Notes: generated by a model not told the origin, from the sequence alone. DNA of 64,000 nucleotides from Terriglobia bacterium (GCA_963664115.2 CAXWPJ010000009.1:1120001-1184000), one strand, 5' to 3'; shown: positions 2,635-26,057, counted from the stretch's first letter. A program made the numbers and translations.

Positions 2635-2770
2635 ATAGAATCCGGCACGACGCTCGCCCACTAGGAGATCCTGTCGGTTCTCGGCAAAGGACGATGGGAG
2701 AAATGTGGCGTACGCAGATTAAGATGTTCGAGCGTGAGGTCGCGATCAAGACCCTACCTCGAGAGGTCGC
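2635..2770 (+). pseudogene. Ser/Thr protein kinase N-terminal stub
   Basis: IESGTTLAH*EILSVLGKG/MGEMWRTQIKMFEREVAIKTLPRE: Gly-loop and VAIK motif, with ATA start, an internal stop and a frameshift. Confidence 0.85.
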
Positions 2771-3086
2771 CCGGGTTGTTGCCAATCGGGGCTGGATTTC
2801 AGGAGACGACGACGCGACAATGCTTATTCATTGGAAGGAGTCGGCGACAACGAAGACAGCCCCGTTTTGCCGCAACCGTTTGGGCGCAGGGGGGGGGCGC
2901 AGGATTTGTCCCTCGTCGGTCGCGATGCAAAGACAGCGCCAGCGGCCTCGGTTTCAGGCCTCGGTGCCCGCTCCTCACTTCGCGCCTGCAACCCGAAGGC
3001 CCCTGCGCGCGGTCCTCGAGACTTCTGCTACGGGCTGCTAGGGTCCGAAATGCTCGAATGGTGAATTAGCCGGGAGGTAGCAGTTC

Positions 3087-4912
3087 ATGGGAAAGAAGCG
3101 AAAAGAGTCTATCGGCCGACGCAGTTTCCTGAAAGGTGCAGCGGGAGGCGGAGCGGCGCTTGTTGCGACTGCCCCCTAGCTGGCGCGCAGTCTGGGCCCG
3201 GCCCCACGTCGGCGGAGCCGCGTGAAGGGGACGCGACGGCAGGCGGCCGGCCGGGGTCCGACTTCATGATGGACGTCATAAAACCCCTCGGGTTTGAGTA
3301 CATGTCGATCAATCCCCATTCCAGCTCCCGTGGTCTACAGGAATCCATCATCAACTACAGTGGAAACCGCGATCCGGAACTGATCACCTGCCTCCACGAA
3401 GAGGCGGCCGTCGCCATGGCGCATGGATATTTCAAAATTGAAGGCAAACCGATGGCTGCGCTGATATACGGATCAGTCGGTTTGCAGCATGCCTCAATGG
3501 CGGTCTACAGCGCGTTTTGCGACCGCGTGCCGATTTACCTGATGATGGGCAACGAATTGGAGAATCCCAATTCAAGAAGCGTGCAGGATCCTGCGGCGAT
3601 GGTGCGCGACTTTACCAAATGGGACGATGCACCTGTCTCGCTCGATCAATTTGCCAATTCTGCGGTGCGCGCCTATGCCATCGCAATGACCCCGCCGACA
3701 ATGCCTGTTGTATTGTCGGTAGACGAGCGTTTGCAGGAAAATCGGATTCCCAGAGGCACCCGTTTGCGCGTCCCGAAGCTCACTCTGAATGCTCCGGCCC
3801 AGGGCGATGCCACCGCTGTGGCCGAGGTTGCGCGCCTGCTGGTCAACGCTGAGTTTCCGGTCTTGGCCGTCGAGCGCGCTGCGCGAACCGAAGCCGGTCT
3901 CAGCTATATCGTCGAATTGGCGGAACTCCTGCAGGCCGGGGTCGTGGACACGATCCAGCGCATGAATTTCCCCTCGCGCCATCCCCTCAGCCAGGACAGC
4001 GGTGTGTTTGGCAGTGCGGACGTCGTCCTGGCGCTTGAGCACCCGCGACTTTCGCGGTCGAGCCTGATGCAGGATGCAACGCTGCTCAGCATCAGCTCAC
4101 ATGACCTTTTCACGCGGAGCAACTACTGGGATTTCGGAAGCTACCAGGAAGCGGATGTGGCGATCGCAGCCGATGCGGAGGCCACGCTTCCACTCCTGAT
4201 CGAAGAGGTCAAGCGCCGGGTTACCGGCGATCGACAACGCGTGTTCGAAGCGCGTCGCGCGACGCTGGAGGATCGGTTCCAGCGTGCCCTCGAGCGAAAC
4301 CGGCGGCTCGCGGCCTCGGGCTGGAACGGCAGTCCGATCAGCACCGCCCGTGTCGCGGCCGAACTCTGGGCCCAGATCAAGAACAAGGACTGGTCCCTGG
4401 TTTCCCGAAGTGATGGAATGAACGAGTGGGCATGGAAGCTCTGGGATTTCCAGAAGTATCATCACCACATCGGTCAGTCCGGCTCGGTCGGCGTAGGCTA
4501 CAGCAACCCGGCTTCGGTGGGCGCCGCACTGGCAAACCGTAAGCACGGACGTCTGAGCATCAACCTGCAAAACGACGGCGACCTTATGTTTCTCCCCGGG
4601 ACCTTATGGACCGCTGCGCATCACAAGATTCCGATGTTGACCGTCATGCACAACAACCGGGCGTACAACCGGGAAGTGATGTGGGTCGCGCGCACGGCCG
4701 CCGAGCGGGAGCGCGACGTCACCCGATCCGACATCGGCAACTCCATTGACAATCCCAACATTGACTATGCCAAACTCGCCGAAAGCATGGGATGGTACGC
4801 CGAGGGTCCGATAGAAAATCCCGCGGACCTGGGACCGGCCATTCGCCGGGCCCTTGCGGTTGTCGAGCGGGGCGAGCCTGCGTTGCTGGACACGATCACG
4901 CAACCCATCTAG
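3087..4912 (+). CDS. ThDP-binding enzyme (acetolactate synthase/benzoylformate decarboxylase superfamily) with Tat-like leader separated by a frameshift; long ORF 3266-4912
   Basis: CLHEEAAVAMAHGY, GDLMF...HNNRAY; upstream MGKKRKESIGRRSFLKGAAG joins the main frame if the C run at 3172-3176 gains one C. Confidence 0.85.
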
Positions 4913-4921
4913 GAGGTTCCT

Positions 4922-5344
4922 GTGAGTCGTTTACTTATGGATCGCTGGTCGGTCAAACCGCCTTCCTGGGCCCTGGGCGTGGCGGTGCTGCTGCTTGTCG
5001 TCCCGGTGGGGTGGGTCGAGGCCGAGCAGTCGCCGGCCGCGGTTGACGCCGCGCCCGGAGGAAACGTCGAAGACGGAAAGCGGAGCCTGACGACCTATAC
5101 CTGCTCCTCCTGCCACGGTTATTCAGGCCACGGCGGGGTCGACGTAGGCGCTCCCCGCATCGCCACGACTTCAATGTCCCTTGCCGACTTTACGCAATAC
5201 GTGCGGCAGGCCAGCGGTTCTTCAATGCCTCGGTTTAGGGCCGAAATCTTACCCGACACGGTGCTGGCGGATATTTACGCTTTTCTGAAATCCATCCCAC
5301 CGCCACCCGATTCCAGGAGCATTCCTCTGCTGAATGATCTGTAA
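4922..5344 (+). CDS. Monoheme c-type cytochrome
   Basis: Signal peptide, CSSCH heme motif, distal MP. Confidence 0.88.
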   Translation: MSRLLMDRWSVKPPSWALGVAVLLLVVPVGWVEAEQSPAAVDAAPGGNVEDGKRSLTTYTCSSCHGYSGHGGVDVGAPRIATTSMSLADFTQYVRQASGSSMPRFRAEILPDTVLADIYAFLKSIPPPPDSRSIPLLNDL

Positions 5345-5366
5345 CGAGGGCCTCAACTTTCCCGGG

Positions 5367-5445
5367 TCAAGTCCTCGCAAATCATCTTCTCGGACATTGA
5401 AACCCCATTTTCAGGGCCTTTTCTCAGTGTCCGACAATGTCATTC
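5367..5445. repeat. Dyad site pair A2 + inverted B2 (B2 truncated by IS30 end)
   Basis: TCAAGTCCTCGCAA-ATCATC-TTCTCGGACATTGA at 5367-5400; TCAGTGTCCGACAA-TGTCAT at 5424-5443. Confidence 0.9.
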
Positions 5446-5920
5446 GGATCAACCGGTCGATGCAACACAAGCATTAAATGTTTCTGCCGGAGTTGCGAAC
5501 TCCAAGGTCTTGCGTGGCCGCTCGTTGAGCTGCCGTGCAACCGCGTCCAGATGCTCCTGTGAGTGTACTGAGAGATTCGTCCTTTTTGGGAAGTAGTATC
5601 GCAGCAGACCATTCGTGTTTTCATTCGATCCGCCTTGCCATGGACTCCGCGGGTCGCAAAAGTACACGGTAATGTCGGTGGCCAGAGTGAACCGTTTGTG
5701 CTCGGCCATCTCCGGACCGCGGTCCCGGGTCAGCGACCTGTAGAGTTCGGTTGGCAGCTTCTTCGCCTGTCGGATCAGTGCCGAAACGACTGTCTCTGTA
5801 ACGGACAGCTTCACCAACATGAGGTAAGACAAATGACGTTCGACCAGCGTTGCGATGTGGGTGTTCCTCGCCGATAGCAGATCCCCTTCCCAGTGTCCCG
5901 GTAGGGCCCGGCGATCGCGA
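5446..5920 (-). mobile_element. IS30-family remnant (C-terminal transposase part and right end)
   Basis: PGHWEGDLL, SLTRDRGPEMA, PWQGGSNENTNGLLR, LNERPRKTL...CVASTG*. Confidence 0.85.
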
Positions 5921-5942
5921 CCTACTTGGTCCCGAGATCGAA

Positions 5943-7469
5943 TCAGATGTATTGAGGCCGCGGCTGCTTGACCGGCGGGACCTGAAGCTCGGGCATCGGC
6001 TTTGCGGCAAAGATCCAACGGCACGGTTTCGCAATCAACTTCGCCCATCGGCGCCCGCGGCTGCGAGCGCTGTCGGTGGCGAGCCCCGTATTCGCGTACA
6101 TCTGGGGGAACAGTAAGGAGATCAGAATGTAGGCCAGTCGATCGCGCAGCTTGTTCGTGACCCGCGAGCGCTTCCACACGTTCGACAGGTTATAGAACTC
6201 TTTCCAAACCGCCTGCGTTTTCGTCCGGATCTCATACGGCGTCATCGTTGGATGCGGAATGTAGAGCTTGGGACGTTTGTTCGGTGGGATAAGCCAGAAC
6301 CGGTTCAGCGGGATCCCGTCCACCGTCTCTTTGGCCTGATCGATCTCGCTCTCCCACTTATTGAAATCGACTGTACCGGGAAACGGCGTCAGGGTAACGA
6401 ACTGAGCGAAATCGATCCCTGCCTTGGCAGCGAGATCGGCGGTCGCGTCGAACGTGTCGTCGCGATCCGTCGAAAGCCCAAAAATGAACGAGCCGAGGAT
6501 GTGGACGTCGTGGTCGACAAACTTGCGGAGCCGCTTGACGAGATCGTCTCCCGCGACGTTGAAATCCTTGAATACGGCCTTCAGACCTTCTTCCGTCACC
6601 GACTCGACGCCGACGAGAGCGCCTTTCACGTTCGCGCGTTTCATCGCATCGAGATACTCGTCATCGTCCGCGGCTTCCATCGTGATCTGCGTCAAAAAGA
6701 CCATGTCCTGCGGAAGCTCAGCGAGGCGATCCAAGAGCTCAAAACGCTCCGCACGGATAGCTTTTAACTCTTCCACGCGAGCGCCGGAACGACGCTCCTC
6801 GAGCTCGATGTCTTGCTGCGTGACCGGGTAAAAGTTGTCGTCGGCGAGAAGTATGAAACGAAATCCTTTCCGTCGCAGCTCGACGACCTCCTGGACAACG
6901 GCGTCCGAGGCGTGCTGTCGAGGCCTTTGGCCGTCGGTGCGCCAGACCGAGCAGAAGGAGCAATGTTTCGGGCAACCGCGCACGGTCTGCACCGAGGCGA
7001 TCATGTAGCTCTCTGACGGCATCAAATCCCACCGCGCAGGAAGGAAGGAGTCCCCTTCGATGCGGCCGCCGTCGTAGATCCGTTCCGGCTCGCCCTTTTC
7101 AATATCTTTGAGAACCTGACTCCAGATGTTGTCGCCGTCGCCCTTCACGACCGCGGTCGCGCCGCCATTCTCGAACGCTTCTTCCGGATAGAGCGTCACA
7201 TGCGAACCGCCGAAGACGACATGCGCACCACGCTCGCGCGCCTTTTGCCCGACCTCGTAGCCTCGCAGCGCGTTCAACGTGTGGATACCGATGCCCACGA
7301 CGTCGCCCGGCTGGATCTTGGAATAGTCCATCGGATCGAGCGTCTCATCTACGATAATCGGCGTTCCGAAACGAGCCGGTGTCGCGCACGCGATCACGTA
7401 GAGCCAGCGAGGAACGATGATACCGATACCGAAGGAGGTGTCGCTTGGGTTTATCAAATGTACGCTCAT
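5943..7469 (-). CDS. B12-binding-domain radical SAM protein
   Basis: RGCPKHCSFC (CxxxCxxC); N-terminal cobalamin-binding-like domain (VVFGGSHVT); likely start MSVHLINP. Confidence 0.88.
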   Translation of the reverse strand: MSVHLINPSDTSFGIGIIVPRWLYVIACATPARFGTPIIVDETLDPMDYSKIQPGDVVGIGIHTLNALRGYEVGQKARERGAHVVFGGSHVTLYPEEAFENGGATAVVKGDGDNIWSQVLKDIEKGEPERIYDGGRIEGDSFLPARWDLMPSESYMIASVQTVRGCPKHCSFCSVWRTDGQRPRQHASDAVVQEVVELRRKGFRFILLADDNFYPVTQQDIELEERRSGARVEELKAIRAERFELLDRLAELPQDMVFLTQITMEAADDDEYLDAMKRANVKGALVGVESVTEEGLKAVFKDFNVAGDDLVKRLRKFVDHDVHILGSFIFGLSTDRDDTFDATADLAAKAGIDFAQFVTLTPFPGTVDFNKWESEIDQAKETVDGIPLNRFWLIPPNKRPKLYIPHPTMTPYEIRTKTQAVWKEFYNLSNVWKRSRVTNKLRDRLAYILISLLFPQMYANTGLATDSARSRGRRWAKLIAKPCRWIFAAKPMPELQVPPVKQPRPQYI

Positions 7470-7779
7470 GCCGTCTCCATAATGTAGCTTGAAAACCGGA
7501 CTGGGATCCAGCCAAGCAAAGCGGAGAATATAGGAGCACCGCTCCACTGTCAACGTCATGTGAGAGGGCAGGATCGGGCTCGATGAAAGACGAATAACAG
7601 ATCTAAGCCCCTCTCGCGCTGGACGAAGTTGATCCCATTCCACCCACGTCTCTTCCCAATGTCCCGATAGCACTTCGGGCACCCAACCTACAATCCAGTA
7701 GACTCATCATAATGTCCCTCTCCATCCATGTCGATGCTTACTCAGGCTATCGGGCTGTAGATGACCGTGAAAAATATTC

Positions 7780-7813
7780 TCAAGTCCTGACAAATCATCT
7801 TCGCGGACATTGA
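7780..7813 (+). repeat. Dyad site A3
   Basis: TCAAGTCCTGACAA-ATCATC-TTCGCGGACATTGA. Confidence 0.9.
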
Positions 7814-7917
7814 AAATCGGCCTAAATACGAGCGTTGACCTTCTGATTGCTTACAACTCCCTCCCTTAGTATTCTTTACGGAGTTTCTCGCAGTTATTTC
7901 AGCGACACACTCTAAAC

Positions 7918-7966
7918 ATGGAATCCGGCACCAAACTGGGTCACTACGAAGTCCTCAGCCTCCTTA
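7918..7966 (+). pseudogene. Ser/Thr kinase N-terminal stub
   Basis: MESGTKLGHYEVLSLL then loss of homology; preceded by the same leader as at 2578 and 24118. Confidence 0.8.
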
Positions 7967-8103
7967 GGTTTGACCCTGCGGTTAGGAGTTGCGAACTGGC
8001 CTCCGGAGATAATCGTGCGCTGGAAAGGCTCAGCCGGAGGCAGATGGATCTATACTCACGAGCCGGAAGGGAGAAAACTAAATCCGGCTGAAAGGAAAGC
8101 ACC

Positions 8104-9063
8104 ATGACATTGCGCATGCCCATGCTGAGTACGGTCCTGCTGGCGCTGCTGCTGGGAATCGCCGTCAGCGGCGAGTGGTCTGCGATGAAGGCGCAGAGCG
8201 CCTTCTCGCTCACACCGGTCGGCCCCGACCTCTACTTCTACTACACGGGTGGAGCTTCCAACTCCACCGTGCTGATCACCGAGGAAGGGGTACTGATCGT
8301 CGACTCCCAGGGAAATCGGCGCGCCGCCGAAGCGCTGCTGGCGGAGATCCGCAAGAAAACGGCCGACCCTATCAAATGGGTCGTCAACGGGCAAGACCAC
8401 GGCGACCACTATCTCGGCAACGCTGTTTTTAAGCGCGAAGGCGCGGCCATCGTGGCGGAGGCCGAGACGGCTCGCATCATCGCGAGGAATTACGAGTACG
8501 AACTCGAGTGGCGCGGTCTGGATCCGCTCGAGGCCGGAGAACATGTGATCCCCGAGGTCACGTTCGAGGAACGAATGGTCATCCGCTTGGGCGGGCGCGA
8601 GGTCATCCTCCTTCACATCGGTGCGGGGCAGAATCCCGGCGATACGGTCGTGTTGTTTCCCCACGCGCGCGCCGCCTACTCCTCGGGTGCGTTCGCGCCG
8701 AAGTCGTGGTCCAGCACCGCCTACGCCTCGTCCGTGGAGAGCTGGATTGACGTGCTGGAGAAGATCAAAGCGCTAGACGTGGACACCTACCTGCCGGGTC
8801 ACGCCCACAGGGTCACCGACCGGGCCGAGATCGACGAGGAGATTGTGTTGCTGCGCGAGATCCAGGCCGCCGTGGAAGACGCCATTGCGCAGGGTCTGAC
8901 CGCAGAAGAGACCGCCCAGGCGCTGACTTTCGAGCGGTACGCAAACTGGAGGGGTGCCGCGCGGCGCGAACGGAACCTCCGGAACCTCCATTACCTGCTC
9001 TCGACCGGCCGGCCGATCTACTTCGACTACCTGGACGGCCGCACGACCATCAAGCCGTATTAG
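8104..9063 (+). CDS. Exported metallo-beta-lactamase-fold hydrolase
   Basis: Signal peptide; VLIVDS, variant motif QDHGDH, PGHAH. Confidence 0.8.
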   Translation: MTLRMPMLSTVLLALLLGIAVSGEWSAMKAQSAFSLTPVGPDLYFYYTGGASNSTVLITEEGVLIVDSQGNRRAAEALLAEIRKKTADPIKWVVNGQDHGDHYLGNAVFKREGAAIVAEAETARIIARNYEYELEWRGLDPLEAGEHVIPEVTFEERMVIRLGGREVILLHIGAGQNPGDTVVLFPHARAAYSSGAFAPKSWSSTAYASSVESWIDVLEKIKALDVDTYLPGHAHRVTDRAEIDEEIVLLREIQAAVEDAIAQGLTAEETAQALTFERYANWRGAARRERNLRNLHYLLSTGRPIYFDYLDGRTTIKPY

Positions 9064-9145
9064 AGTTTGATCTTGCGTGCGGATAAGCGGTGTAAGCAGG
9101 GGCTGACGACTATGGCAGCGCTGACAGTGTCGTAGTACGATCGGC

Positions 9146-9230
9146 CAGAACTGGTTTGAAGAACTGAAGCTACGGGTGCCGGTTCCTTGATTCTCGGGGT
9201 CAAGTCCTGATAAATCTTCTCGGACGTTGA
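9146..9230 (+). repeat. Kinase C-terminal stub (QNWFEELKLRVPVP*) followed by dyad site A4 (spacer shortened to ATC)
   Basis: Stop at 9188-9190; TCAAGTCCTGATAA-ATC-TTCTCGGACGTTGA at 9200-9230. Confidence 0.88.
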
Positions 9231-9241
9231 GAAACCTTTCT

Positions 9242-9836: not shown

Positions 9837-9998
9837 CTCCACTTTATCGCTGTGCTAACCTGGTTTGAAGAACTCAAGGAGCGGGTGCCGGTTCCCTGAT
9901 TTTCCGGGTCAAGTCCTGAGAAATCATCTTGTCGGACGTTGAGAATCGGCAAATTACTGAGGTTTTTCAACGTCCGTATGTCGTTTCTCAGAACTTGA
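9837..9998. repeat. Kinase C-terminal stub (LHFIAVLTWFEELKERVPVP*) + dyad pair A5/B5
   Basis: Stop at 9897-9899; A5 at 9909-9942 TCAAGTCCTGAGAA-ATCATC-TTGTCGGACGTTGA; B5 at 9967-9998 TCAACGTCCGTA-TGTCGT-TTCTCAGAACTTGA. Confidence 0.92.
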
Positions 9999-10143: not shown

Positions 10144-10665
10144 ATGTCGAGATTCACAGAACGCATGATTCGCGCTGCGAAGTTAGATGTGAACCTTTAT
10201 GAAGAGGTGGAAGCCGATAAGACGACCATGGGCCAGGCGATGGGCGTGGTGGTGTTGTCTTCTCTTGCCGCCGGCATCGGCAGTATATCCACGGGTGGCA
10301 GAAATTTAATTCTCGTGACCATTGCCGCTTTAGTGGGATGGTATATCTGGGCTTATCTCACTTATTTTATCGGCACCAAATTTCTGCCCGAAACGCAAAC
10401 AAAGGCCGATTACGGAGAACTGTTAAGAACGATCGGATTTTCTAGCTCGCCGGGGCTGATACGGATTTTGGGAATCATTCCAGGGTTCACCAATTTAGTC
10501 TTCTCGGTGGCCGGAATATGGATGCTCATTGCGATGGTCATTGCGGTGCGTCAGGCATTGGACTATACAAGCACCCTGCGAGCGGTGGGTGTGTGCTTGA
10601 TCGGCTGGATCATTCAGAGCATCTTTGTAGGGCTCTTATTGTTGTTTGCGCAGGGTGGCGCTTGA
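10144..10665 (+). CDS. YIP1-like integral membrane protein
   Basis: Several TM segments; LYEEVEAD, LLRTIGF, AVRQALDY. Confidence 0.7.
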   Translation: MSRFTERMIRAAKLDVNLYEEVEADKTTMGQAMGVVVLSSLAAGIGSISTGGRNLILVTIAALVGWYIWAYLTYFIGTKFLPETQTKADYGELLRTIGFSSSPGLIRILGIIPGFTNLVFSVAGIWMLIAMVIAVRQALDYTSTLRAVGVCLIGWIIQSIFVGLLLLFAQGGA

Positions 10666-10809
10666 AAAACCCGCTGATACCTCCGTCTACGCTTCGAGCG
10701 CAACCTCACGATGCCGCCCGCAAGACTCGACGAGGCCAGAATGGATTCGCTACATCCTTTTCTGTACGGCACTTTCATCCCCTACAACATGCCGGTTTAT
10801 CCCGGCGCT

Positions 10810-10840
10810 TTCCCTGATAAATTATCTTCTCGGCGGTTGA
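10810..10840 (+). repeat. Degenerate dyad site A6
   Basis: TTCCCTGATAA-ATTATC-TTCTCGGCGGTTGA. Confidence 0.75.
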
Positions 10841-11144: not shown

Positions 11145-11179
11145 TCAAGTCCCGAGAAATCAATCTTCTCGGACGTTGA
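11145..11179 (+). repeat. Dyad site A7 (7-bp spacer)
   Basis: TCAAGTCCCGAGAA-ATCAATC-TTCTCGGACGTTGA. Confidence 0.88.
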
Positions 11180-11273: not shown

Positions 11274-11365
11274 ATGGAATCCGGCAGCAAACTCGGTTAC
11301 TAGGAGACCCTGTCTGCCCTCGGTAGGGGTGGGATGGGAGAAATGTGGAAGGCCACTGAACTTCG
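11274..11365 (+). pseudogene. Ser/Thr kinase N-terminal stub
   Basis: MESGSKLGY*ETLSALGRGGMGEMWKAT. Confidence 0.85.
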
Positions 11366-11505
11366 GCAAGTGAGTCATCCTGGAACTGAGAATCGACAGA
11401 GATGAAACGACTCCTTCCACCCTTAAATCCATCGGGATCAACCACCAATGATGCAATAATCTCTCTATGCAGCTGGTCAAGAAATCCAGCAGGGCAAATC
11501 CTGGT

Positions 11506-11567
11506 GACGCAATTACGCTGCAGTCGTGATAAAGCCGACGCAATTACGCTGCAGTCGTGATAAAGCC
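11506..11567. repeat. Perfect 31-bp tandem duplication
   Basis: GACGCAATTACGCTGCAGTCGTGATAAAGCC x2. Confidence 0.95.
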
Positions 11568-11633
11568 GGACCGCTTCACCCTCCGGCGATCCAAGAGGTT
11601 TGTAGTGAAACAATGCTTTCTCGGGAGGAAAAG

Positions 11634-12011
11634 ATGAATCTGAAGTCTCTGAGCCTTGCCGTCGCGACATTTGTCGCTCTAGGCGCGTCGGCGTGGGCGC
11701 ATCATTCACATGCGAATTACAACACCGACGAGTTCACAAACCTGTCCGGCACCGTTACCCAGGTGGCCTGGGGGAACCCGCATGTCTGGCTGTATATGGA
11801 GATCGCCGACGAGCAGGGCCGTCCGCAGGCGTGGACAATGGAGGGCGGCAGCCTCCAGGCGTTGATGCGCGGCGGCTGGCAACGCGACAGCCTGAAGCCA
11901 GGCGACAGGATCAGCGTGCGCTGCAATCGAGTGAGAGATGGGTCCTCAGGGTGCCTGATGGGTTTCGTGACGAACATCAACGGTACGGCCATGGACAAGG
12001 AGTTCGACTGA
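11634..12011 (+). CDS. DUF6152-like secreted OB-fold protein
   Basis: Signal peptide ending AWA-HHS; WGNPHVW; LKPGDRISV. Confidence 0.75.
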   Translation: MNLKSLSLAVATFVALGASAWAHHSHANYNTDEFTNLSGTVTQVAWGNPHVWLYMEIADEQGRPQAWTMEGGSLQALMRGGWQRDSLKPGDRISVRCNRVRDGSSGCLMGFVTNINGTAMDKEFD

Positions 12012-12055
12012 GCCTGTCGCTTAGGCATTACACGACAAAATCGGAGGAGGATCAG

Positions 12056-13075
12056 ATGCGTTATCTCGGACTTGTTTCGGCGGCCTTGGTCGTGCTGAGC
12101 ACAAGCGCCTCCTTTGCGCAGGGCTGGCGTGAATATGTCAGCCGTGATGAGTTCTTCATGGTCAGTATGCCGGCGGAGCCGCAAATTACGGAGACCACGT
12201 ACCGTGCGGCGTCAGGCGCGATCCTGCCGGCGAAGACGTTCGTCGCGACCGAAGGCCAGAGTGGTGCTTCCGTCACCGTCGTCCACTACATGAACGCGAG
12301 CGCGGCAGACGTTGAGGGCGCCGTTGAACATGCGGTGGGGGGCTTCCGCAGCCGTTCCGGGGAGATTACCTATGATAGCCCGCAAAGGATGGAGGGCCTT
12401 CCGGGACATATGATCTACCACTTGAATCCGGACCAGAGCCGCACCGCTGCAGGAATATTTTTGCACGCGGGGCCGTCCGAACATGGCGGCCCGGGGCGCC
12501 TATATATCCTCGAGGGCATTGCGGCGGCGGGCGCGCCGTCGCCCATACAGTTCCCGCAATCGTTCTTTTTGCTCGACGACGCAGGCACCCGCCTGGACTA
12601 TGAAACCGATGCGAACGGGCAGAGAGTCCGGGCTTTTCGCGGCCAACCGGTTAGCGTCGGCCCGGCCTACAGCGCGCGAGAGCCGGTGTCCTGTGAGTCG
12701 CGCGCCGAGCCCACCCAAGGCCGGCCGACCCCCGCGCAGGTGGTGGGTCACCTCAAGTGCGCGGCCGAAGGCGTCGCCGACGGCAGTCTGTATCTCCTTG
12801 AAGACGTCGAAGTGAGCGAGATCGGCGAAGGCGAGTCTGTTGACGCGAGTTACTTCCCTGACATCGACGTCGCCCACCCGGTGTTTCCGATTCGGGGGAA
12901 TCTGGTGCGCTACGAGTGCCGACGCGAGAATGGCTCCAATGACGGAGCCAACTGCGTTTCCCATGTTGAGGCGAACGCATCCGGCCGTTGCTACAAGGCC
13001 ACCTCAGGCGACTGGAACTGCAGCATGTCGGACCTTGTGCAACGGACGACAGCGGGCGTAGCGGCGCCGGAGTAG
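12056..13075 (+). CDS. Secreted hypothetical protein with Cys-rich C-terminal extension
   Basis: GGAGG RBS, signal peptide, QGWREYVS..F.V.MPAEP; paralog of 20131-20715. Confidence 0.7.
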   Translation: MRYLGLVSAALVVLSTSASFAQGWREYVSRDEFFMVSMPAEPQITETTYRAASGAILPAKTFVATEGQSGASVTVVHYMNASAADVEGAVEHAVGGFRSRSGEITYDSPQRMEGLPGHMIYHLNPDQSRTAAGIFLHAGPSEHGGPGRLYILEGIAAAGAPSPIQFPQSFFLLDDAGTRLDYETDANGQRVRAFRGQPVSVGPAYSAREPVSCESRAEPTQGRPTPAQVVGHLKCAAEGVADGSLYLLEDVEVSEIGEGESVDASYFPDIDVAHPVFPIRGNLVRYECRRENGSNDGANCVSHVEANASGRCYKATSGDWNCSMSDLVQRTTAGVAAPE

Positions 13076-13114: not shown

Positions 13115-13146
13115 GTGCTTTCATAAATCATCTTGTCGGAAGATGA
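13115..13146 (+). repeat. Degenerate dyad site A8
   Basis: ...CATAA-ATCATC-TTGTCGGAAGATGA. Confidence 0.75.
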
Positions 13147-15621: not shown

Positions 15622-16016
15622 GGGAACCTCCTGCAGCTGCTTAATCGATGAGGGTCGTTCGGATCGTATTCTGTCCCGCCGGGTTCCCCTTGTCAATAAA
15701 CCCGGTACCACGATCAGATAGAAGCGCGAAGACAGGAGGCTGGTTCCATAACGGACGTGTTTCTTTTCGGGAAGGGGGCAGAGGGTGTCGTCAACTTAAG
15801 GTCCGATTGACGAGTGGGCGATTGGCGTGTGAAGGTGAGTTTCGACAGTCCGGGCGAATCCGCGGAGATCAAATTTTCAACAGCGGCGCACGATCGTTCA
15901 GTTCGGTTCAGAATCTTTGAAAACTTCGGCCACCAGTCAGCTTTGAAACCTTCTCAGGTGAGCCGGTTGCAATTCTCTCCGCTCTCTCATCACGAACAAC
16001 GCATTCATGAATCGCG

Positions 16017-19230: not shown

Positions 19231-19289
19231 GATGCTTTCCTAGTAGGGTGATTGTTTCTGGACAGGGAAGTTGTTCCCGACCGTAACTC

Positions 19290-19880: not shown

Positions 19881-20130
19881 TTCAACGACCTGAGGCTCCC
19901 CGCCCGCGTTTTCACCGTTACGGTTCTCGAGGGCGACATGCGGACTCGGTAAGCACCAAGAGCGCACCCGCCGCGCTGCCTATGCAGACGTGTCAGACAC
20001 AGGTTGAGTGAGGTTTGTGTCACAGCAAATGAATTCTACTGGATCAATCAATCCCAGGGAAGGGAAAGTGGCCGCCAGTGCGTTGACATCGGTTGGCGTC
20101 GTATGGTTCTCTAACGCGGTAGAGGCAACG

Positions 20131-20715
20131 ATGGTAACAACAGCGCGCTTTATCAGACTGGCTCCGGCCGTGTGGATTCTGTGTGTGTCGGGGCTTGGCT
20201 TCTCACAAGGCTGGAGATCGTATGTCGATCGGGCAGAACGGTTCAGCGTCAATATCCCCGCCGAACCCAGGGTAGAGGACATTTCCTACATGGGGGAGCG
20301 CGGCGGCACTTACCCGGCGCGTGTCTATACCACCGATCAAGGTCCAAACCGCTACTCGGTCACCGTGGTCCACTATGTCGACGCCCCGCCAACGGTTGTG
20401 CGGGGATCGATCGCCCACGCGGCGTGGAATGTGCGACAGAGGGGCGGTGAGGTCACATACGACGCCTACGCTCAAGTCGACCGCATTGAAGGACACCAGC
20501 TGCAGATCACGAACGAGGATGCGAGCCGCACCTACGTTGCAATCCATCTGCACGAGGGCCGTCTTTACATACTGGAAGCGAGAGTACCTCCAGCTTCGCC
20601 GCCGCCGGTGCAGTTCCAGCAATCACTGGTCATCCTCGACGCAGAGGGAGACAGAATCCGATATGCTGTCGACGAATTTGGGAACAGAACCGTCCGCGTC
20701 CCTCCCGACGACTAG
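20131..20715 (+). CDS. Secreted hypothetical protein, paralog of 12056-13075
   Basis: QGWRSYVD..RFSVNIPAEP; RLYILE; P.QFQQS. Confidence 0.72.
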   Translation: MVTTARFIRLAPAVWILCVSGLGFSQGWRSYVDRAERFSVNIPAEPRVEDISYMGERGGTYPARVYTTDQGPNRYSVTVVHYVDAPPTVVRGSIAHAAWNVRQRGGEVTYDAYAQVDRIEGHQLQITNEDASRTYVAIHLHEGRLYILEARVPPASPPPVQFQQSLVILDAEGDRIRYAVDEFGNRTVRVPPDD

Positions 20716-20760
20716 ACACGCGGGTGGCGGTATTCTTTATTCGATCTTTAGGAGAGTGAG

Positions 20761-21138
20761 ATGAGGTCAAAAACCTTCTGTTTTGCCGCCACGATCGCGG
20801 CTGCCCTGGTCATGTCCGGGCCTGCCTGGGGCCACCATTCGCACTCCAACTATGACCAGACCAAGTTCCTCAACATGGACGGAACCGTGACGGATGTCTC
20901 CTGGATCAATCCACACGTCTGGGTTTACATGGAAGTAATCGATGCCCAAGGTCAGCCGAAAATGTGGGTTCTTGAAGGCGGCGGTATCCGTCCGCTGATC
21001 CAGAAGGGCTGGACACGCGACAGCCTCAAAGCGGGTGACGAAATTTCCGTGCGATGTCATCAACTGAGAGATGGCTCCGAAGGCTGTCTTCTGGGGTTTG
21101 TGAAAACTGCGGACGGAGTTGAAAAGGAGTTCGACTAG
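20761..21138 (+). CDS. DUF6152-like secreted protein
   Basis: AWG-HHSH, WINPHVW, KEFD* (same ending as the 11634 paralog). Confidence 0.78.
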   Translation: MRSKTFCFAATIAAALVMSGPAWGHHSHSNYDQTKFLNMDGTVTDVSWINPHVWVYMEVIDAQGQPKMWVLEGGGIRPLIQKGWTRDSLKAGDEISVRCHQLRDGSEGCLLGFVKTADGVEKEFD

Positions 21139-21365
21139 GCGATCCCAATTTTGGGGTTCGAACACTCTTGGTACCGGACAAGCGTTGCTTGTCCTCGAAA
21201 CGGCAATCTTGCCCGGGGCGTGATCCGGCTTGGGCGGGCATCCTTCCTTCCCACCGCGTGCGCGCGGGTCCTCCATTGATCGTTAGAACGCGCTCCAAAT
21301 AGCCGTAAAATAACCTTCCATGATGAGCACATCGCTATCATCAACGCGGGCGCCGGCCCTGCCAT

Positions 21366-21378
21366 TCAAGTCCTGAGA
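21366..21378 (+). repeat. Left half of the dyad site
   Basis: TCAAGTCCTGAGA, 13-bp match immediately upstream of the EutA-like gene. Confidence 0.55.
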
Positions 21379-21386
21379 CAGAGAGA

Positions 21387-22988
21387 GTGCACTTCGATCA
21401 TCACCATCCCGACCTGGACCACGTTCCCGAAGACCAGCACCTCGGCCCTGAATACGACGGCCCGATCGAGGATCACCCTTTGTGGCAGCGGGAAAACGTA
21501 TCCCTCACAAGCGTCGGTGTTGATATCGGTTCAGCGGGCACGCAGATTCTGTTCTCACGCATGCACCTGCGCCGCCAGGCGGTCGATCTCTCGAGCCGTT
21601 ACCTGGTGGTTTCGCGTGAGACCTGGTACGAGTCTCCGGTTCGACTGACGCCCTACAGGAGTGAAACGCTAATCGACGCTCGAGCCCTTGGGGCCATCGT
21701 CGATGCCGCGTATCAGGCAGCACGAGTGCATCCCGACGATATCGACACAGGCGTTGTCATTCTGACCGGGGAAGCCCTCAGGCGCGAGAACTCGGAGCGC
21801 ATTGCCGGCATTCTCTCAGAAAAGTGTGGGGAACTGGTCTGTGCGACCGCCGGCCATCATATGGAAGCGATGCTCGCTGCGCATGGCTCAGGCGCGGTTC
21901 AGGCTTCGTATGATCGCAACGAGTGTGTGCTCAACATCGACATCGGAGGCGGCACAACGAAGCTCAGCGTGATCGATAAAGGCCGGGTCGTGGCCACTGC
22001 CGCGATCCACATCGGCGGACGCTTACTGGTGCGCGGGGGCGACGGGCGGCTCGCCCGCCTGGACCCTGCCGGGAAAACTCACGCCGCACGTGCGGGATTT
22101 TCCTGGCGCGTTGGCGATGGGGTGAGCGACGGACAGCTCGACGCGGTCGCGGAATTCATGGCTGATGCTCTCGTCGCGGCACTGACTGCGCCGACGCTGC
22201 CCCCCGATGTAGGGGACCTTTACCTGACCGACCCGATTACAGGTTTGGAGAATGTTGCCACCGTCGTCTTCTCAGGTGGTGTCGCCGAGTTCATATATCA
22301 GCGCGAGGACCGCGATTTCGACGACCTCGGGAAACGTCTGGGCGAGGCGCTCCGCGCCCGCGTCGATTCCGGTGAGCTGCCCTGGTATTTCTTACCCGAC
22401 AGTCACGGCATCCGCTCGACCGCCCTCGGTGCCTCGGAGTTCACGGCTCAATTGAGCGGCAATACGGGTTATATCAGTGATCCGGGTAGCCTTCTGCCTC
22501 GACGCAACATACAGGTCGTGCGGCCCGATTTCGATTTTGCGGGGGAATTCGATTCAGGCAGTCTTGCCGAAGCGATTCGCCTGCACATGAAGCGATTCGA
22601 CGTCGACGACTCCGAGGCCGACGTTGTCCTGGCCTTCCATTGGCAGGGCGTCCCCGAGTTCCGTCGTATCGCAGCGCTTGCGGCGGGCATTTGCGGTGGC
22701 ATGGCCGAGCGCATCGCCGGAGGGAAGCCCATCTATGTAGTTCTCGATGCCGATATAGCGATGAATCTCGGTGCCATCCTCCGGGAGGACCTTGCGATCG
22801 ACAATGAGGTCTGCGTCATCGATGGTATCGCGCTCTGGGATTTCGACTATATCGACCTGGGCAGGATGCGACTGCCCTCGGGTACCGTACCCGTTGCGAT
22901 AAAATCGCTGGTGTTCCATGACGTCGTCGGGGGACCGCACCCCCACCAGAGGGTTCACCACAAACCACAACACACATCGGAGAGCTGA
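21387..22988 (+). CDS. EutA-like ASKHA ATPase (ethanolamine ammonia-lyase reactivase homolog) with His-rich termini
   Basis: SVGVDIGSAGTQ, TGEA, NIDIGGGTT, SGGVAE, DYIDLG..VPVAIKSL. Confidence 0.85.
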   Translation: MHFDHHHPDLDHVPEDQHLGPEYDGPIEDHPLWQRENVSLTSVGVDIGSAGTQILFSRMHLRRQAVDLSSRYLVVSRETWYESPVRLTPYRSETLIDARALGAIVDAAYQAARVHPDDIDTGVVILTGEALRRENSERIAGILSEKCGELVCATAGHHMEAMLAAHGSGAVQASYDRNECVLNIDIGGGTTKLSVIDKGRVVATAAIHIGGRLLVRGGDGRLARLDPAGKTHAARAGFSWRVGDGVSDGQLDAVAEFMADALVAALTAPTLPPDVGDLYLTDPITGLENVATVVFSGGVAEFIYQREDRDFDDLGKRLGEALRARVDSGELPWYFLPDSHGIRSTALGASEFTAQLSGNTGYISDPGSLLPRRNIQVVRPDFDFAGEFDSGSLAEAIRLHMKRFDVDDSEADVVLAFHWQGVPEFRRIAALAAGICGGMAERIAGGKPIYVVLDADIAMNLGAILREDLAIDNEVCVIDGIALWDFDYIDLGRMRLPSGTVPVAIKSLVFHDVVGGPHPHQRVHHKPQHTSES

Positions 22989-22989
22989 G

Positions 22990-23934
22990 ATGTTTGCACC
23001 GGTGCTCAAGACTGTAACCCGCACGCAGGGAAATAACGCCGCCCTGAAAGATGGCACGGTCACGCCGAAGGGCTGCGTTCTGGATTTCGAGGAAGTGCCC
23101 GTGCTGGTTCATGCATTTCGCCGCATGGTGCGTGGACTGGAATTTGACGTCTGTGAAATGGCCCTGACCACCTATCTTTGTGCTCGCGAGCACGGCGTTC
23201 GTTTTACCGCATTGCCGATCTTTCTGGTTCGAGCGTTTCACCACGGCGCGATCCTTCACAACTTGAGTTTCCCTGTAGGCGATCCCCGGGAGCTGGAGGG
23301 AAGGCGAGTCGGAATAAACCGGGGGTATACGGTGACCACCGGCGTCTGGGCTCGGGCGGTCCTCGAGGAAGAGTACGGCGTCGATCTAAGCAAGGTGAGC
23401 TGGGTTGTGTCAGGTGACGAACATGTCACAGCCTATGTGCCGCCCGGGAACGTAGTCCCTATGGAACCCGGCCAGACGCTTGAGGCAATGCTCGCCACGG
23501 GGGAACTGGCCGCAGCGATCGGCCTGAAGACCGATCTTGCCCAGATTCAGCCACTGATCCCGAACGCACTGGACGCGGGCATCGCCGCGTTTGAACGCGC
23601 GGGGCACTATCCGATCAACCACCTTGTGGTTGTTCGGGATGATGTGCTTGAGTCGTATCCGGAGGTCGCCGTGGCGTTGTTAAACGCTTTTGCCGAGGCA
23701 AAGAGCGTCTATCTGGAGCGGCTCAAGCAAGGAAGAATCGAAAACCCCACAGAGATGGACGCATTTCACGCCCGGATGATGGAAATCGCAGGTGACCCGC
23801 TGCCCTACGGAATCGCAGCGAACCGTGGTGTGCTGGAGAGCCTGATCAGCCACGCATCGGCGCAGAAGATTCTGAAGAAGCCGGTGGAGCTTGAAGAGCT
23901 ATTTGCAGAAGAGACACGTGGATTGAGTGCGTGA
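22990..23934 (+). CDS. 4,5-dihydroxyphthalate decarboxylase-like / type 2 periplasmic-binding-fold protein
   Basis: FRRMVRGLEFDVCEM, YTVTTGVWAR, YPINHLVV, DPLPYG. Confidence 0.8.
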   Translation: MFAPVLKTVTRTQGNNAALKDGTVTPKGCVLDFEEVPVLVHAFRRMVRGLEFDVCEMALTTYLCAREHGVRFTALPIFLVRAFHHGAILHNLSFPVGDPRELEGRRVGINRGYTVTTGVWARAVLEEEYGVDLSKVSWVVSGDEHVTAYVPPGNVVPMEPGQTLEAMLATGELAAAIGLKTDLAQIQPLIPNALDAGIAAFERAGHYPINHLVVVRDDVLESYPEVAVALLNAFAEAKSVYLERLKQGRIENPTEMDAFHARMMEIAGDPLPYGIAANRGVLESLISHASAQKILKKPVELEELFAEETRGLSA

Positions 23935-24064
23935 TTTCAGCATCCTCCCCATCTTGAACGTTTTTCGAACTCTGCAAATCGGTTTTCACCTCTCGCTATA
24001 TTGCGAGACTGCAGTTTTTACGCCTAAGTTACTGATTTTAATTTCTATTCTAGGAACTGAATTC

Positions 24065-24095
24065 TCAACGTCCGACAATGTTTCTCAGGACTTGA
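24065..24095 (-). repeat. Inverted dyad site B9 (spacer shortened to TGT)
   Basis: TCAACGTCCGACAA-TGT-TTCTCAGGACTTGA. Confidence 0.9.
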
Positions 24096-24174
24096 GAATT
24101 TAATAGCGCCTAACCCACTCCTCTAGTATCTTTTACGGAGTTTTTCACGGTTCAATCAGCAACACACTTTAGAC

Positions 24175-24295
24175 ATGGAATCCGGCACCCAACTCGGGCA
24201 CTACGAAATCCTCTCAGCCATCGGCAAAGGCGGCATAGAGTGAGGTGTGGGTCTTGATGGCAATTTTCCGGCTGGGCTTGGTGTCCCGCGCACGG
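24175..24295 (+). pseudogene. Ser/Thr kinase N-terminal stub with internal micro-inversion
   Basis: MESGTQLGHYEILSAIGKGGI/EVW on +, then RARDTKPSRKIAIKT on the - strand at 24294-24250. Confidence 0.85.
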
Positions 24296-24404
24296 TGTGC
24301 ATCAGAGGAGGGCGAATAATACGCGGAGCCGGCCCGGATAGGCTTACTTCCGAACTGGCGTACGGCTAGCGATCCCGACACCATTCATAGGGCACAGAGA
24401 CGGT

Positions 24405-24848
24405 TTACTCGACGTCTTCGAAAAAACCGCTCGCAGTGAGCTTCACCACGATGTCCCTGTCGCTGCGGTTGTTGAGGTACCAGCCATGTATTCCGTCAAA
24501 CGGCGCCTTCAGCGTGCCGCTTTCGCGGCCTTCGTTGTGCACCTTGTAGAACATCAGGTCGCCCTGGCCGTCAACGGGTTCGGTATGACCGTGGAATTCC
24601 ACGTCCAGCAGAGCCGGGTCCGTCACGTCGGACGTCCAGGAATACATCATGAAATCGCCGGCCTTCATGCTCAGTTTGAACTCCAGGCCTACGCCCGTCG
24701 GGATCAGGATTTCATAATCGCTCTGCTTGTAGGGAGTGGTGGCATCAGAAAAGGTGCCGGGGCTTAGGGGCATGTCGTTCCATTGAACCTGGGCCACGCC
24801 TGTAACTGAAAAGATGCAAATTACGAGGGGAACAATCAGTTTTCTCAT
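24405..24848 (-). CDS. Secreted hypothetical protein
   Basis: MRKLIVPLVICIFSV signal; EFHGH and APFDGIHGWY motifs. Confidence 0.65.
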   Translation of the reverse strand: MRKLIVPLVICIFSVTGVAQVQWNDMPLSPGTFSDATTPYKQSDYEILIPTGVGLEFKLSMKAGDFMMYSWTSDVTDPALLDVEFHGHTEPVDGQGDLMFYKVHNEGRESGTLKAPFDGIHGWYLNNRSDRDIVVKLTASGFFEDVE

Positions 24849-25117
24849 ACCGGACTCCTTACATGTTGCCTGTTGACGAGTGCGCCATATTACCAACGAT
24901 GCGTCGTAGCCGGGAAGGAATTTCGTCACGGCAGCGTCGTCAGACCCTGCTCATTCCGCTTATCCGCGCGCGCGTCCGCATTACCCCAGAATCCAGACAT
25001 TGGCGCCGCACTGCAATATCTCTAGCTTGTTCCAATTACGGATGAGATACGCTCAAACGTTTGCCGGCCTTGTGATACATTCGGTGTCAGCCCTTCTCGA
25101 ATTGAGGAATAACGAAA

Positions 25118-25880
25118 ATGTCGATTGAGAGACTTCGGCGATTTTGCCGTCTTAGAACGCTCATGGCGTATTCGATCCTATGGTTGTTGCCGGTCGCCTT
25201 AGCGGCGCAGGATGCTAGCGATCCCTCCACTCTTTCTCCGGGATTTCATCGTCTGACTTTGCCGCGTGCGGATGGGCCCGTAATCAACTACGCGATCCTC
25301 GTTCCGGATAGCTATTCTCCCTCGACGCCCGTCCCTCTCATTCTTGCATTGCACTTCGGAGGAAACCCGACAGGCGCGGGTGCGAGCGTACTGCAAATTC
25401 TGATTGGTCCGGCGCTTAGCGAACTCGGCGCCATTATCGTCGCGCCGGATTCGGTGGGAGGCAATTGGACCACCCCCGACCACCCCCGAAAACGAGGTCG
25501 CTGTGAACGCGTTGCTCGACACGGTCTTGGACCATTATGCAATCGACGAGGAAAAGATTGCAGTTACCGGCTTCAGCATGGGCGGCGCAGGCTCCTGGCA
25601 TTTTGCGCAGAGTTTCCCGGAACGCTTCAGCGCGGCAATTCCTATCGCCGGCAGACCGCCGGCATCAGCCGCCGGGTGGCAGCTTCCGGTATTGGCTATT
25701 CATTCCCACGACGACCAAGTTGCACCTTTTGAGCCAACTGAGGCACGAATCGCGGAACTTCAGAACGCCGGTGCGGACGCGACGCTGATCGCGCTTTCCG
25801 GCATCACGCATTACGAAACCCACCGCTTCCAAGATGCATTGCAGCAGGCGGTCCCGTGGTTACGTGAGATTTGGGAGTAA
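25118..25880 (+). pseudogene. Secreted alpha/beta hydrolase (esterase-like), frameshifted
   Basis: GFSMGG nucleophile motif; a 10-bp duplication GACCACCCCC x2 at 25468-25487 splits the ORF. Confidence 0.8.
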
Positions 25881-25978
25881 AGCCTTTAGCAGGATGGCGG
25901 ATAGGCGTTTTAAGCAGGGCCCGACGACTGTGGCAGCAATGAAAACGTCAGAGTAGGGGCGTTATGTAAACCTGGCTG

Positions 25979-26057
25979 TTTGAAGAACTGAAGGAACGGG
26001 TGCCCGTGCCCTGATTTCCGAGTTCAAGTCCTGATAAATCATCTTCTCGGACGTTGA
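25979..26057 (+). repeat. Kinase C-terminal stub (FEELKERVPVP*) + dyad site A10
   Basis: Stop at 26012-26014; TCAAGTCCTGATAA-ATCATC-TTCTCGGACGTTGA at 26024-26057. Confidence 0.92.

What the first reader, a model, noticed from the sequence alone, without database searches (positions are those of the whole stretch)
2635..26014. Hollowed-out Ser/Thr kinase genes: only the extreme N- and C-termini remain, bracketing cargo
Seen: four N-terminal stubs (2635, 7918, 11274, 24175; MESGTxLGHYE..LGxGGMGExW, up to VAIK) each lie about 80-105 bp after a dyad site. Three C-terminal stubs (stops at 9190, 9899, 26014; (W)FEELKxRVPVP*) each end 9 bp before a site. No intact kinase is present. At 7780-9230 and 24065-26057 the order is site, N-stub, cargo, C-stub, site. 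Known: the Gly-loop and VAIK are Hanks kinase subdomains I-II. From memory, NWFEELK is the typical end of kinase/TolB-propeller fusions expanded in Acidobacteria. Inference: the ancestral unit was a site-flanked kinase cassette that was amplified and repeatedly had its interior replaced, so kinase paralog expansion and gene capture may share one mechanism.
Basis: partly seen in the sequence, partly recalled or inferred. Interest (0 to 1): 0.82.

Follow-up and report, generated by a model that had tools for sequence, protein, structure and literature searches.

The report
Lox-type gene cassette arrays in Acidobacteria
The broken kinase ends are the margins of a genome-wide system in which about 250 copies of a 34-base loxP-like site mark off gene cassettes that turn up at different places within and between related Acidobacteria species, likely shuffled by a still unidentified Cre/Xer-type recombinase, which would be a third kind of bacterial gene-cassette system beside integrons and dif modules.

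Summary
The stubs and sites are real, and larger than the window shows. The genome holds 252 full or half copies of a 14-6-14 site with two spacers, A (ATCATC) and B (ACGAC(A/C)); none in a shuffled genome. The full unit is inverted B, promoter, kinase-PD40 gene, A. Intact kinases with this layout exist elsewhere in the genome. Whole site-to-site cassettes recur at other loci and in congeneric species (92-97% against 78-87% for core genes); 71 site pairs share one flank only, 2 share both. The arms match VloxP at 24 of 28 bases. No cognate recombinase was found: only XerC/XerD are common to the site-rich genomes. The hollowing itself looks like separate random breakage and insertion, not a dedicated swap: stub lengths vary smoothly, and the two halves of the 24065-26057 unit sit in swapped order, each with its own stubs, in another species. 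The kinase expansion is much wider than the site, so one shared mechanism is only partly supported. No paper found (9 searches) and no earlier scan note describes it. New variant of site-delimited cassette systems; interest 0.72.

The parts
1946..2476 (-). IS110-family remnant whose end sits in a site spacer
   Evidence: Pfam DEDD_Tnp_IS110; 95.7% to the full element; 7 of 7 ends of this element lie at a site spacer
2477..2496 (+). half A site (spacer + right arm) left by the IS110 insertion
2522..2555 (-). B-type site (inverted; spacer CCGACA)
2560..2589 (+). predicted sigma-70 promoter of the kinase leader (TTGATA, 18 bp, TAGTAT)
   Evidence: conserved in the leaders after B sites; function inferred
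2635..2778 (+). kinase N-stub 1 (144 bp, to VAIK; start lost, stop, frameshift)
3266..5344 (+). cargo: TPP-dependent enzyme and cytochrome c; unit 2475-5400 lies elsewhere in G002 at 94%
5367..5400 (+). A site
5424..5443 (-). half B site 17 bp after the A site, split by an IS30 remnant (to about 5901)
7780..7813 (+). A site
7918..7955 (+). kinase N-stub 2 (38 bp), after leader with -10 box at 7867
8104..9063 (+). cargo: metallo-beta-lactamase-fold hydrolase; moves with the repeat behind it, 95-98% in G002, G003, G004 beside different stubs
9077..9139 (+). second repeat (D9), truncated copy of a 110-bp element with a dif-like end
9140..9190 (+). kinase C-stub 1
9200..9230 (+). A site with 3 bp lost from the spacer
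9846..9899 (+). kinase C-stub 2
9909..9942 (+). A site (consensus copy)
9965..9998 (-). B site with damaged right arm, 16 bp after the A site
10807..10840 (+). A site with degenerate left arm, after a group II intron remnant (10631-10775, minus)
11145..11179 (+). A site with 1 bp extra in the spacer
11274..11348 (+). kinase N-stub 3 (75 bp)
13127..13146 (+). half A site (spacer + right arm)
15882..15904 (-). degenerate kinase C-stub
24065..24095 (-). B site with 3 bp lost from the spacer
24175..24250 (+). kinase N-stub 4 (76 bp), after leader with -10 box at 24124
24408..24848 (-). cargo module 1: small secreted protein, no Pfam match; ends at a partial inverted D9 repeat (24936-24967)
25118..25880 (+). 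cargo module 2: alpha/beta hydrolase; its frameshift is a 10-bp assembly duplication absent from 4 of 4 runs
25895..25957 (+). D9 repeat, truncated
25978..26014 (+). kinase C-stub 3
26024..26057 (+). A site
26127..26474 (+). stub-free cassette: DUF3024 gene between two A sites; same cassette with site-exact ends and other neighbours in G002 and G003 (92-93%)
26552..26585 (+). A site
26619..27380 (+). cassette: protein-L-isoaspartate methyltransferase, site-bounded in G002 and G003 (92%); only a right-arm remnant follows here (about 27411-27421)

Best explanation
The kinase stubs are the left and right margins of gene cassettes bounded by a 34-bp loxP-like site, and the cassettes recur at different places within and between species, likely cut out and reinserted by a tyrosine recombinase that has not been identified. 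Shown: the unit inverted B site - promoter-like leader - Ser/Thr kinase-PD40 gene - A site; direct A repeats in 27 clusters (484 kb); site-to-site copies with different neighbours; exchange of flanks inside the site. Inferred: A x A recombination excises and inserts cassettes (B x B a second, incompatible channel); the founding cassette carried a member of an already amplified kinase family; its interior was then lost piecemeal by unrelated deletions and insertions (IS elements, the D9 repeat, foreign genes), and the ends persisted because they lie next to the site, carry the promoter that would drive the cargo, and are kept alike by repeated exchange.
For: Site architecture: two related 14-bp arms round an invariant asymmetric 6-bp spacer (ATCATC in 132 of the arm-only hits; column counts). 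Arms match VloxP at 24 of 28 bases, the best of 162,826 positions of plasmid p0908 (next unrelated place 19), 435 bp upstream of the VCre gene; tested lox1 and lox6 are alike (PMC10250229 supplement). Neighbouring A sites share orientation in 85 of 89 cases. Three cassettes are duplicated in the genome with both ends in sites (99.3%, 95.9%, 91.0%). Among 274 A sites of four genomes 71 pairs share one flank only, 2 both; outer left-arm alleles follow the upstream flank (60 of 69, base 0.39) and outer right-arm alleles the downstream flank (134 of 144, base 0.70) (pairs are not independent). The DUF3024 cassette keeps its inner arms and changes its outer arms in G000, G002 and G003. Cassettes are 92-97% identical between species whose neighbouring core genes are 78-87% identical. 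First single-copy gene after an N-stub is co-oriented in 41 of 57 cases, p 0.001. Two IS110 elements (7 of 7 each) and an IS30 (7 of 8) sit in the spacer, as parasites of recombination sites do. Stub lengths are smooth.
Against: No cognate recombinase: no Cre-type gene in G000; the Cre-type genes of G002 and G003 carry their own, different lox pair; the XerA/XerC-like gene between two inverted B sites (C5:52192-53139) was not found in G002 (91 sites) or G003 (41 sites) at E 1e-40, and its homologs in 10 other loci have no such site; only XerC and XerD are shared among the integrases examined (25 of 27 in G000, 30 of 39 in G002/G003). Alleles at site positions 14-15, 26-27 and 33 follow neither flank, which a single clean crossover in the spacer does not predict; repeated exchange or conversion must be added. 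The 3.6-kb island at 23940-27540 is absent from G002 and G004 and the empty allele has no site, so new arrays are not founded by insertion into a resident site. No excised circle was seen (contigs only). Stub-cargo-stub units also occur without sites in G004.
Confidence: 0.62

Rival explanations
1. Homology-anchored exchange: the whole junction (kinase 3' end, site pair, leader, kinase 5' start; 100-300 bp) is a conserved anchor for RecA-type recombination and transformation, and the dyad is only the best conserved part, perhaps an operator or an extinct site.
For: Kinase ends are conserved at silent positions (same codon given same residue 0.73 in the last 18 codons and 0.62 in the first 20, against 0.34 in the propeller, 27 pairs). 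A 35-bp C-end string is found in three genera, 12-33 copies in genomes with 0-6 sites. Stub-cargo-stub units without sites in G004. Inner arm alleles are unlinked to both flanks. No dedicated recombinase.
Against: Stub-free cassettes have both ends exactly in 34-bp sites; linkage changes stepwise across the site rather than gradually; the asymmetric spacer is near invariant while symmetric arm positions 15 and 26 vary; 24 of 28 match to a proven lox site.
Confidence: 0.2
2. Single-stranded hairpin route as in integrons or CTX phage: the A - 18 bp - inverted B pair folds into an attC/attP-like hairpin that recombines with double-stranded A sites through host XerC/XerD or the integron integrase.
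For: A..B spacers cluster at 15-20 bp (17 of 25) or 108 bp (5 of 25); the G002 pair folds with z -2.5 and -2.8; the right arm matches the XerC arm of this genome's dif at 8 of 11 (my comparison); an IntI-like gene is present; a group II intron-like end sits in 3 sites.
Against: The three duplicated cassettes hold no B site; a single A site folds no better than shuffles (z -0.2, -0.3) and positions 15/26 do not covary; no XerD arm; IntI is not near sites and was not among G003's 12 integrase hits.
Confidence: 0.08
3. One reading: one dedicated mechanism amplifies the kinase cassette and replaces its interior with cargo at defined points.
For: N- and C-stubs co-occur more than expected (22 of 117, p 0.025); a complete B-stub-cargo-stub-A unit is shared between G007 and a metagenome contig at 98%.
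Against: Stub ends are scattered; the 24065-26057 unit is a mosaic of two modules; 82 of 117 intervals have no N-stub; the expansion exists in genomes without sites.
Confidence: 0.07
4. The B...A unit is a non-autonomous transposon with terminal inverted repeats that captured passengers (MITE/Pack-type).
For: B and A are inverted and enclose leader and stubs.
Against: A outnumbers B (132 to 27 full sites) and mobile units run from A to A in direct repeat; the change of flank lies inside the site, not at its outer edge. Target duplications were not looked for.
Confidence: 0.03

Closest known systems
VCre/VloxP and related Cre-type lox sites (PMC3082901, PMC10250229)
   Same: 34-bp site, two near-inverted arms round an asymmetric spacer; 24 of 28 arm bases identical to VloxP; carries the G-A-(T/G)-A motif beside the spacer that PMC10250229 names for active sites.
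   Different: Known lox sites lie as one or two copies beside their recombinase on a plasmid or phage; here there are about 250 copies on the chromosome in arrays, two spacer classes, and no Cre-type gene in the genome.
Acinetobacter pdif / dif modules (XerC/XerD; PMC13141974)
   Same: Accessory genes between recombination sites with 6-bp spacers; inverted site pairs with different spacers; modules shuffled between replicons and species; IS families that target the sites.
   Different: pdif sites are 28 bp with a conserved XerD arm and alternate in orientation; here 34 bp, no XerD arm, mostly direct repeats, chromosomal, and tied to a kinase leader and ends.
Integron cassette arrays and CALINs (PMC9024848)
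   Same: Directly repeated sites that delimit gene-sized cassettes, co-oriented genes, arrays without a neighbouring integrase, IS110 and group II intron parasites.
   Different: attC varies in sequence and keeps structure; this site keeps sequence and shows no hairpin covariation; no intI-attI at the arrays; cassettes bring their own promoter.
Acidobacterial Ser/Thr kinase-PD40 (TolB-like propeller) family
   Same: Pkinase + PD40, about 890 aa, ends NWFEELKERVPVP; expanded in 54 of 61 relatives.
   Different: In this genus most copies are reduced to stubs (75 N and 159 C hits against 4 intact genes) beside recombination sites.

Membership tests
Cre-type recombinase / lox system | 34-bp site of two 13-14 bp inverted arms and an asymmetric spacer | tested here: met
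Cre-type recombinase / lox system | Cre-type recombinase gene next to its site | tested here: not met
   none in G000; G002/G003 genes have another lox pair
Cre-type recombinase / lox system | strand exchange confined to the spacer | tested here: inconclusive
   flank switch maps between positions about 12 and 31 of the 40-mer; inner arm alleles follow neither flank
Cre-type recombinase / lox system | recombination of two sites by the enzyme alone | not testable with these tools
   needs a reporter assay
pdif / dif modules | XerC arm - 6 bp - conserved XerD arm | tested here: not met
   the genome's dif (C2:108119) has the XerD arm TTATGTCAAG; the site does not; right arm is XerC-like at 8 of 11
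pdif / dif modules | sites alternate in orientation | tested here: not met
   85 of 89 neighbouring A sites are direct repeats; inversion only in A/B pairs
pdif / dif modules | modules found in different contexts with ends in the sites | tested here: met
Integron / CALIN | attC: variable sequence, conserved hairpin with R and L boxes | tested here: not met
   sequence conserved, no covariation, z about 0 for a single site; the attC covariance model itself was not available
Integron / CALIN | intI and attI at the head of the array | tested here: not met
   IntI-like gene C9:714593-715873 has no site within 2.5 kb
Integron / CALIN | direct-repeat arrays of gene-sized cassettes | tested here: met
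Hanks-type Ser/Thr kinase-PD40 family (origin of stubs) | Pkinase domain followed by PD40 propeller; both stubs from the same gene family | tested here: met
MITE / passenger-carrying transposon | terminal inverted repeats as outer ends, with target duplication | tested here: inconclusive
   mobile ends lie inside the site; target duplications not tested

The most novel reading that the evidence does not exclude
A third class of bacterial gene-cassette system: hundreds of chromosomal lox-type sites with two incompatible spacers act as a natural multi-site shuffling platform (about a tenth of the genome), driven in trans by a host Xer protein or a passing recombinase, and built from a signalling-kinase gene whose ends were turned into promoter-bearing cassette margins that carry captured genes between species.
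Probability: 0.45. Interest if true: 0.88.

Novelty: new variant of a known kind. Interest (0 to 1): 0.72.

Why it matters
Integrons and dif modules are the two known ways bacteria keep accessory genes as site-delimited cassettes. This would be a third, with lox-type sites, missed by integron and pdif scanners, that organises 484 kb of a 4.9-Mb chromosome and moves metabolic genes between species. It gives a direct test (two sites plus candidate enzymes in a reporter), an orphan lox site with a natural pair of incompatible spacers, two IS110 elements that target it, and an example of a protein gene's ends being recycled as mobile-DNA margins.

Tried and rejected
Recombinase hunt: PF00589 in G000 (27 hits), G002 and G003 (39 hits); six identical integrases near sites are IS91-type elements inserted at or near sites, not the driver; VCre and a second Cre-type query; PF12835 rang nowhere, controls included, so it shows nothing; serine resolvases are present in all five congeners and were not examined further; a profile search with the C5 recombinase gave only a broad family without context and PDB hits to XerA/XerC/XerD. 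The site was not found in viral contigs, phage or plasmid records (chance-level hits) or 400 other genomes of the phylum. Replichore bias: skew is too broken to read. Adjacent sites do not share alleles more than random pairs (2.84 against 2.72 of 5), so a long target duplication was rejected. Joints in public contigs have sides of 45 bp or less or are tandem artefacts and are explained by other copies of the site; they are no evidence for or against excision. Excision at a second array was left untested. In one search, 25 short N hits came from an IS end in one reference and were dropped before counting. One search timed out and was rerun. Earlier scan notes concern cargo genes only.
Full report
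Observation. The window is G000:C9:1120001-1184000 of a 4.89-Mb, 12-contig genome. Relatives that hold the same site are titled Terriglobia MAGs (9 of 9 loci). They are pseudogene fragments with stops and frameshifts. A fifth N-stub and a faint C-stub lie on the minus strand. Contigs of four public runs confirm several junctions and show that a 10-bp and a 31-bp tandem duplication in the window are assembly errors.

The site. The dyad is a 34-bp site, TCAAGTCCTGA(G/T/C)AA - 6 bp - TT(C/G)TCGGAC(G/A/C)TTGA. A two-arm scan gave 252 full or half sites, and 0 in one shuffled genome; 132 A-type and 27 B-type sites have both arms within 3 mismatches (10 of the 132 are duplicates of assembly overlaps or contig ends). 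Spacers fall in two classes, ATCATC (A) and ACGAC(A/C) (B). Sites form 27 clusters of three or more that span 484 kb; neighbouring A sites are direct repeats in 85 of 89 cases. B lies inverted, 75-77 bp before a kinase start, with a conserved -35/-10-like leader between; A lies 9 bp behind the kinase stop. Of 75 N-stub hits 49 have a site within 200 bp upstream; of 159 C-stub hits 84 have one within 40 bp downstream, and many of the rest end at IS-split or decayed sites. The full repeat, seen intact in G002, is C-end, A, 18 bp, inverted B, leader, kinase, A. G000 has 4 intact kinases of this subfamily and one with a single stop; all 4 have a whole or broken A behind them and 3 a site or half site in front. 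They are Pkinase + PD40 proteins of about 890 aa.

Cassettes move, and the exchange lies in the site. Three segments are duplicated in the genome with both ends in A sites and unrelated neighbours (99.3%, 95.9%, 91.0%); four further rows of that table are a repeat of one of them or IS30 copies sitting in sites. A kinase cassette is duplicated at 93.9% with its right end at A. In the window, the DUF3024 cassette (26024-26585) and the methyltransferase cassette recur in G002 and G003 at 92-93% between sites, with other neighbours; for DUF3024 the inner arms are kept and the outer arms differ in all three species. Core genes beside the array are only 78-87% identical between these species, so cassettes cross species borders. 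Among 274 A sites (135 from all of G000; 139 from fetched stretches of G001-G003), 71 pairs share one flank only, 37 of them between species, and 2 share both; outer left-arm alleles follow the upstream flank and outer right-arm alleles the downstream flank (pairs are related, so the p values overstate). Against the simplest model, alleles at positions 14-15, 26-27 and 33 of the 40-mer follow neither flank, and the 3.6-kb island at 23940-27540 is missing in G002 and G004, whose empty allele has no site.

What the site resembles. I recalled a likeness to VloxP and tested it: in plasmid p0908 the best match to the consensus arms, 24 of 28, is the site upstream of the VCre gene; the next unrelated place scores 19 of 162,826 positions. 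The tested lox1 and lox6 sites are nearly the same (PMC10250229 supplement). The genome's own dif lies at C2:108119 near the skew maximum; the right arm matches its XerC arm at 8 of 11 but there is no XerD arm. A single A does not fold better than shuffles, and paired positions do not covary, so it is not an attC. Two IS110 elements (7 of 7 each), an IS30 (7 of 8), IS91-type integrase elements and an intron-like end insert in or beside the spacer.

The recombinase is not found. G000 has no Cre-type gene. G002 and G003 have one, but each is flanked by its own different lox pair. One XerA/XerC-like gene (C5:52192-53139) lies between two inverted B sites, the same layout as those Cre modules, and is G000's best hit to Cre-type queries; it was not found in G002 or G003 and its homologs elsewhere lack the site. 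XerC and XerD are the only tyrosine recombinases shared among those examined. My odds: a mobile or lost Cre/Xer-like enzyme including the C5 gene 55%, host XerC/XerD 30%, none 15% (inference).

The hollowing. N- and C-stubs enclose the same interval in 22 of 117 cases (13 N only, 32 C only, 50 neither; p 0.025): 3 whole kinases, 2 IS-broken kinases, 1 empty, 16 with cargo. N-stubs run smoothly from 32 to 800 bp and C remnants from 15 to several hundred residues, mostly under 50. Five N-stubs end at, and four C-stubs begin after, a second 110-bp repeat (35 copies) that carries a dif-like end. The hydrolase at 8104 travels with that repeat and sits beside different stubs in three other species; the two cargo halves of 24065-26057 are in swapped order in G004, each with its own stubs. 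No kinase-versus-cargo pair with both ends from one paralog was found among 8 intact kinases. The first gene behind an N-stub is co-oriented in 41 of 57 cases, which fits retention of the leader as a promoter (inferred). Silent sites at both kinase ends are far more alike than in the middle, and a 35-bp C-end string is shared by three genera, also where the site is rare or missing; the ends may therefore also serve as homology anchors.

Range. The site is in 8 of 61 relatives and 13 of 401 genomes of the class with the spacer left free: 153, 109, 58, 15 and 5 copies in the five congeners, 1-6 in a second genus, and variant sites without kinases, in inverted pairs with two spacers around cargo, in another family. 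It was not found in 400 other genomes of the phylum. The kinase family is in 54 of 61 relatives, often in tandem without the site. The expansion is thus older and wider than the site; in this genus the cassette system took a kinase as its founding cargo (inferred).

Literature. Nine searches found no description; the library lacks most subscription papers. Seen: PMC3082901 (abstract, passages, 2 of 3 supplements searched), PMC3553980 (passages), PMC10250229 (abstract, one section, supplement parts 1 and 5 and a search), PMC10850332 (one reference line), PMC13141974 (passages), PMC9024848 (passages); the other hits as listings only. That IS110 and group II introns target attC sites, and the CTX hairpin route, are recalled. 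The scan's earlier notes hold nothing on this system.

Verdict. Observation confirmed; interpretation partly supported. It works like dif modules or integron arrays but fails membership in both, and has the site but not the neighbouring enzyme of a Cre/lox system. New variant of a known kind; interest 0.72.

Noticed in passing
window 9077-9139, 24936-24967, 25895-25957; 35 copies in G000: A 110-bp repeat with sharp ends: a hairpin whose 3' arm is followed by a 6-bp spacer and a XerD-type arm nearly identical to this genome's dif. It follows cargo genes, sits at kinase break points, and occurs in two genera (7 of 61 genomes). Possibly a CTX-like attP for host XerC/XerD.
   Followed up: partly
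G000 C2:753729, C5:47868 and others; remnant at window 1946-2476: Two different IS110-family elements lie only in the site spacer (7 of 7 each); their bridge RNAs should encode the site.
   Followed up: partly
L109, L110, L111, L115 (G057, G003, G002), partly L108 (G036): A small mobile module of a Cre-type recombinase between two inverted lox-like sites with the same spacer, in several Terriglobia families; a ready candidate recombinase-site pair.
   Followed up: partly
G000 C5:52059-53270 (L013): XerA/XerC-like recombinase of a large Acidobacterial family between two inverted B sites with outward-facing leaders and stubs; a related 11-6-11 site lies beside its homolog in G040 and before a kinase leader at G000 C2:322770.
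   Followed up: partly
G000 C1:92926, C1:107678, C2:196451, C12:35353, C12:158201, C12:486987, C12:569265, C3:2939: IS91-type elements with their own tyrosine recombinase, six identical copies and two relatives, all inserted in or within about 300 bp of a site.
   Followed up: partly
window 10631-10775 (minus); G000 C12:17046, 20183, 564501: Group II intron D1-D4 remnant (Rfam) beside a site; an intron-like 5' end inside three right arms.
   Followed up: no
window 25468 and 11505-11537: A 10-bp and a 31-bp tandem duplication are absent from 4 of 4 public runs, so they are assembly errors; the hydrolase at 25118-25880 is probably intact.
   Followed up: yes
L057, L060 (G021, G013); L058, L062 (G026, G029): In other genera tandem kinases are joined by a REP-like palindrome or overlap directly stop-to-start, and stub pairs without kinases occur there too.
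   Followed up: no
L072 (G007), L084, L086; G000 C8:20801-21343: A complete B-stub-cargo-stub-A unit in another genus and in metagenome contigs (98%); the same cargo gene lies in G000 outside any array at 87%, a possible pre-capture state.
   Followed up: partly
L140, L141, L144 (G243, G331, G107): Variant sites in another family flank single cargo genes in inverted pairs with two different spacers and no kinase.
   Followed up: partly
G000 C9:714593-715873: Integron-integrase-like gene with no site nearby; attC sites were not searched for.
   Followed up: no
window 11526-13075: DUF6152 gene with a downstream partner as cargo; the pair recurs in other cassettes and in earlier scan notes.
   Followed up: no
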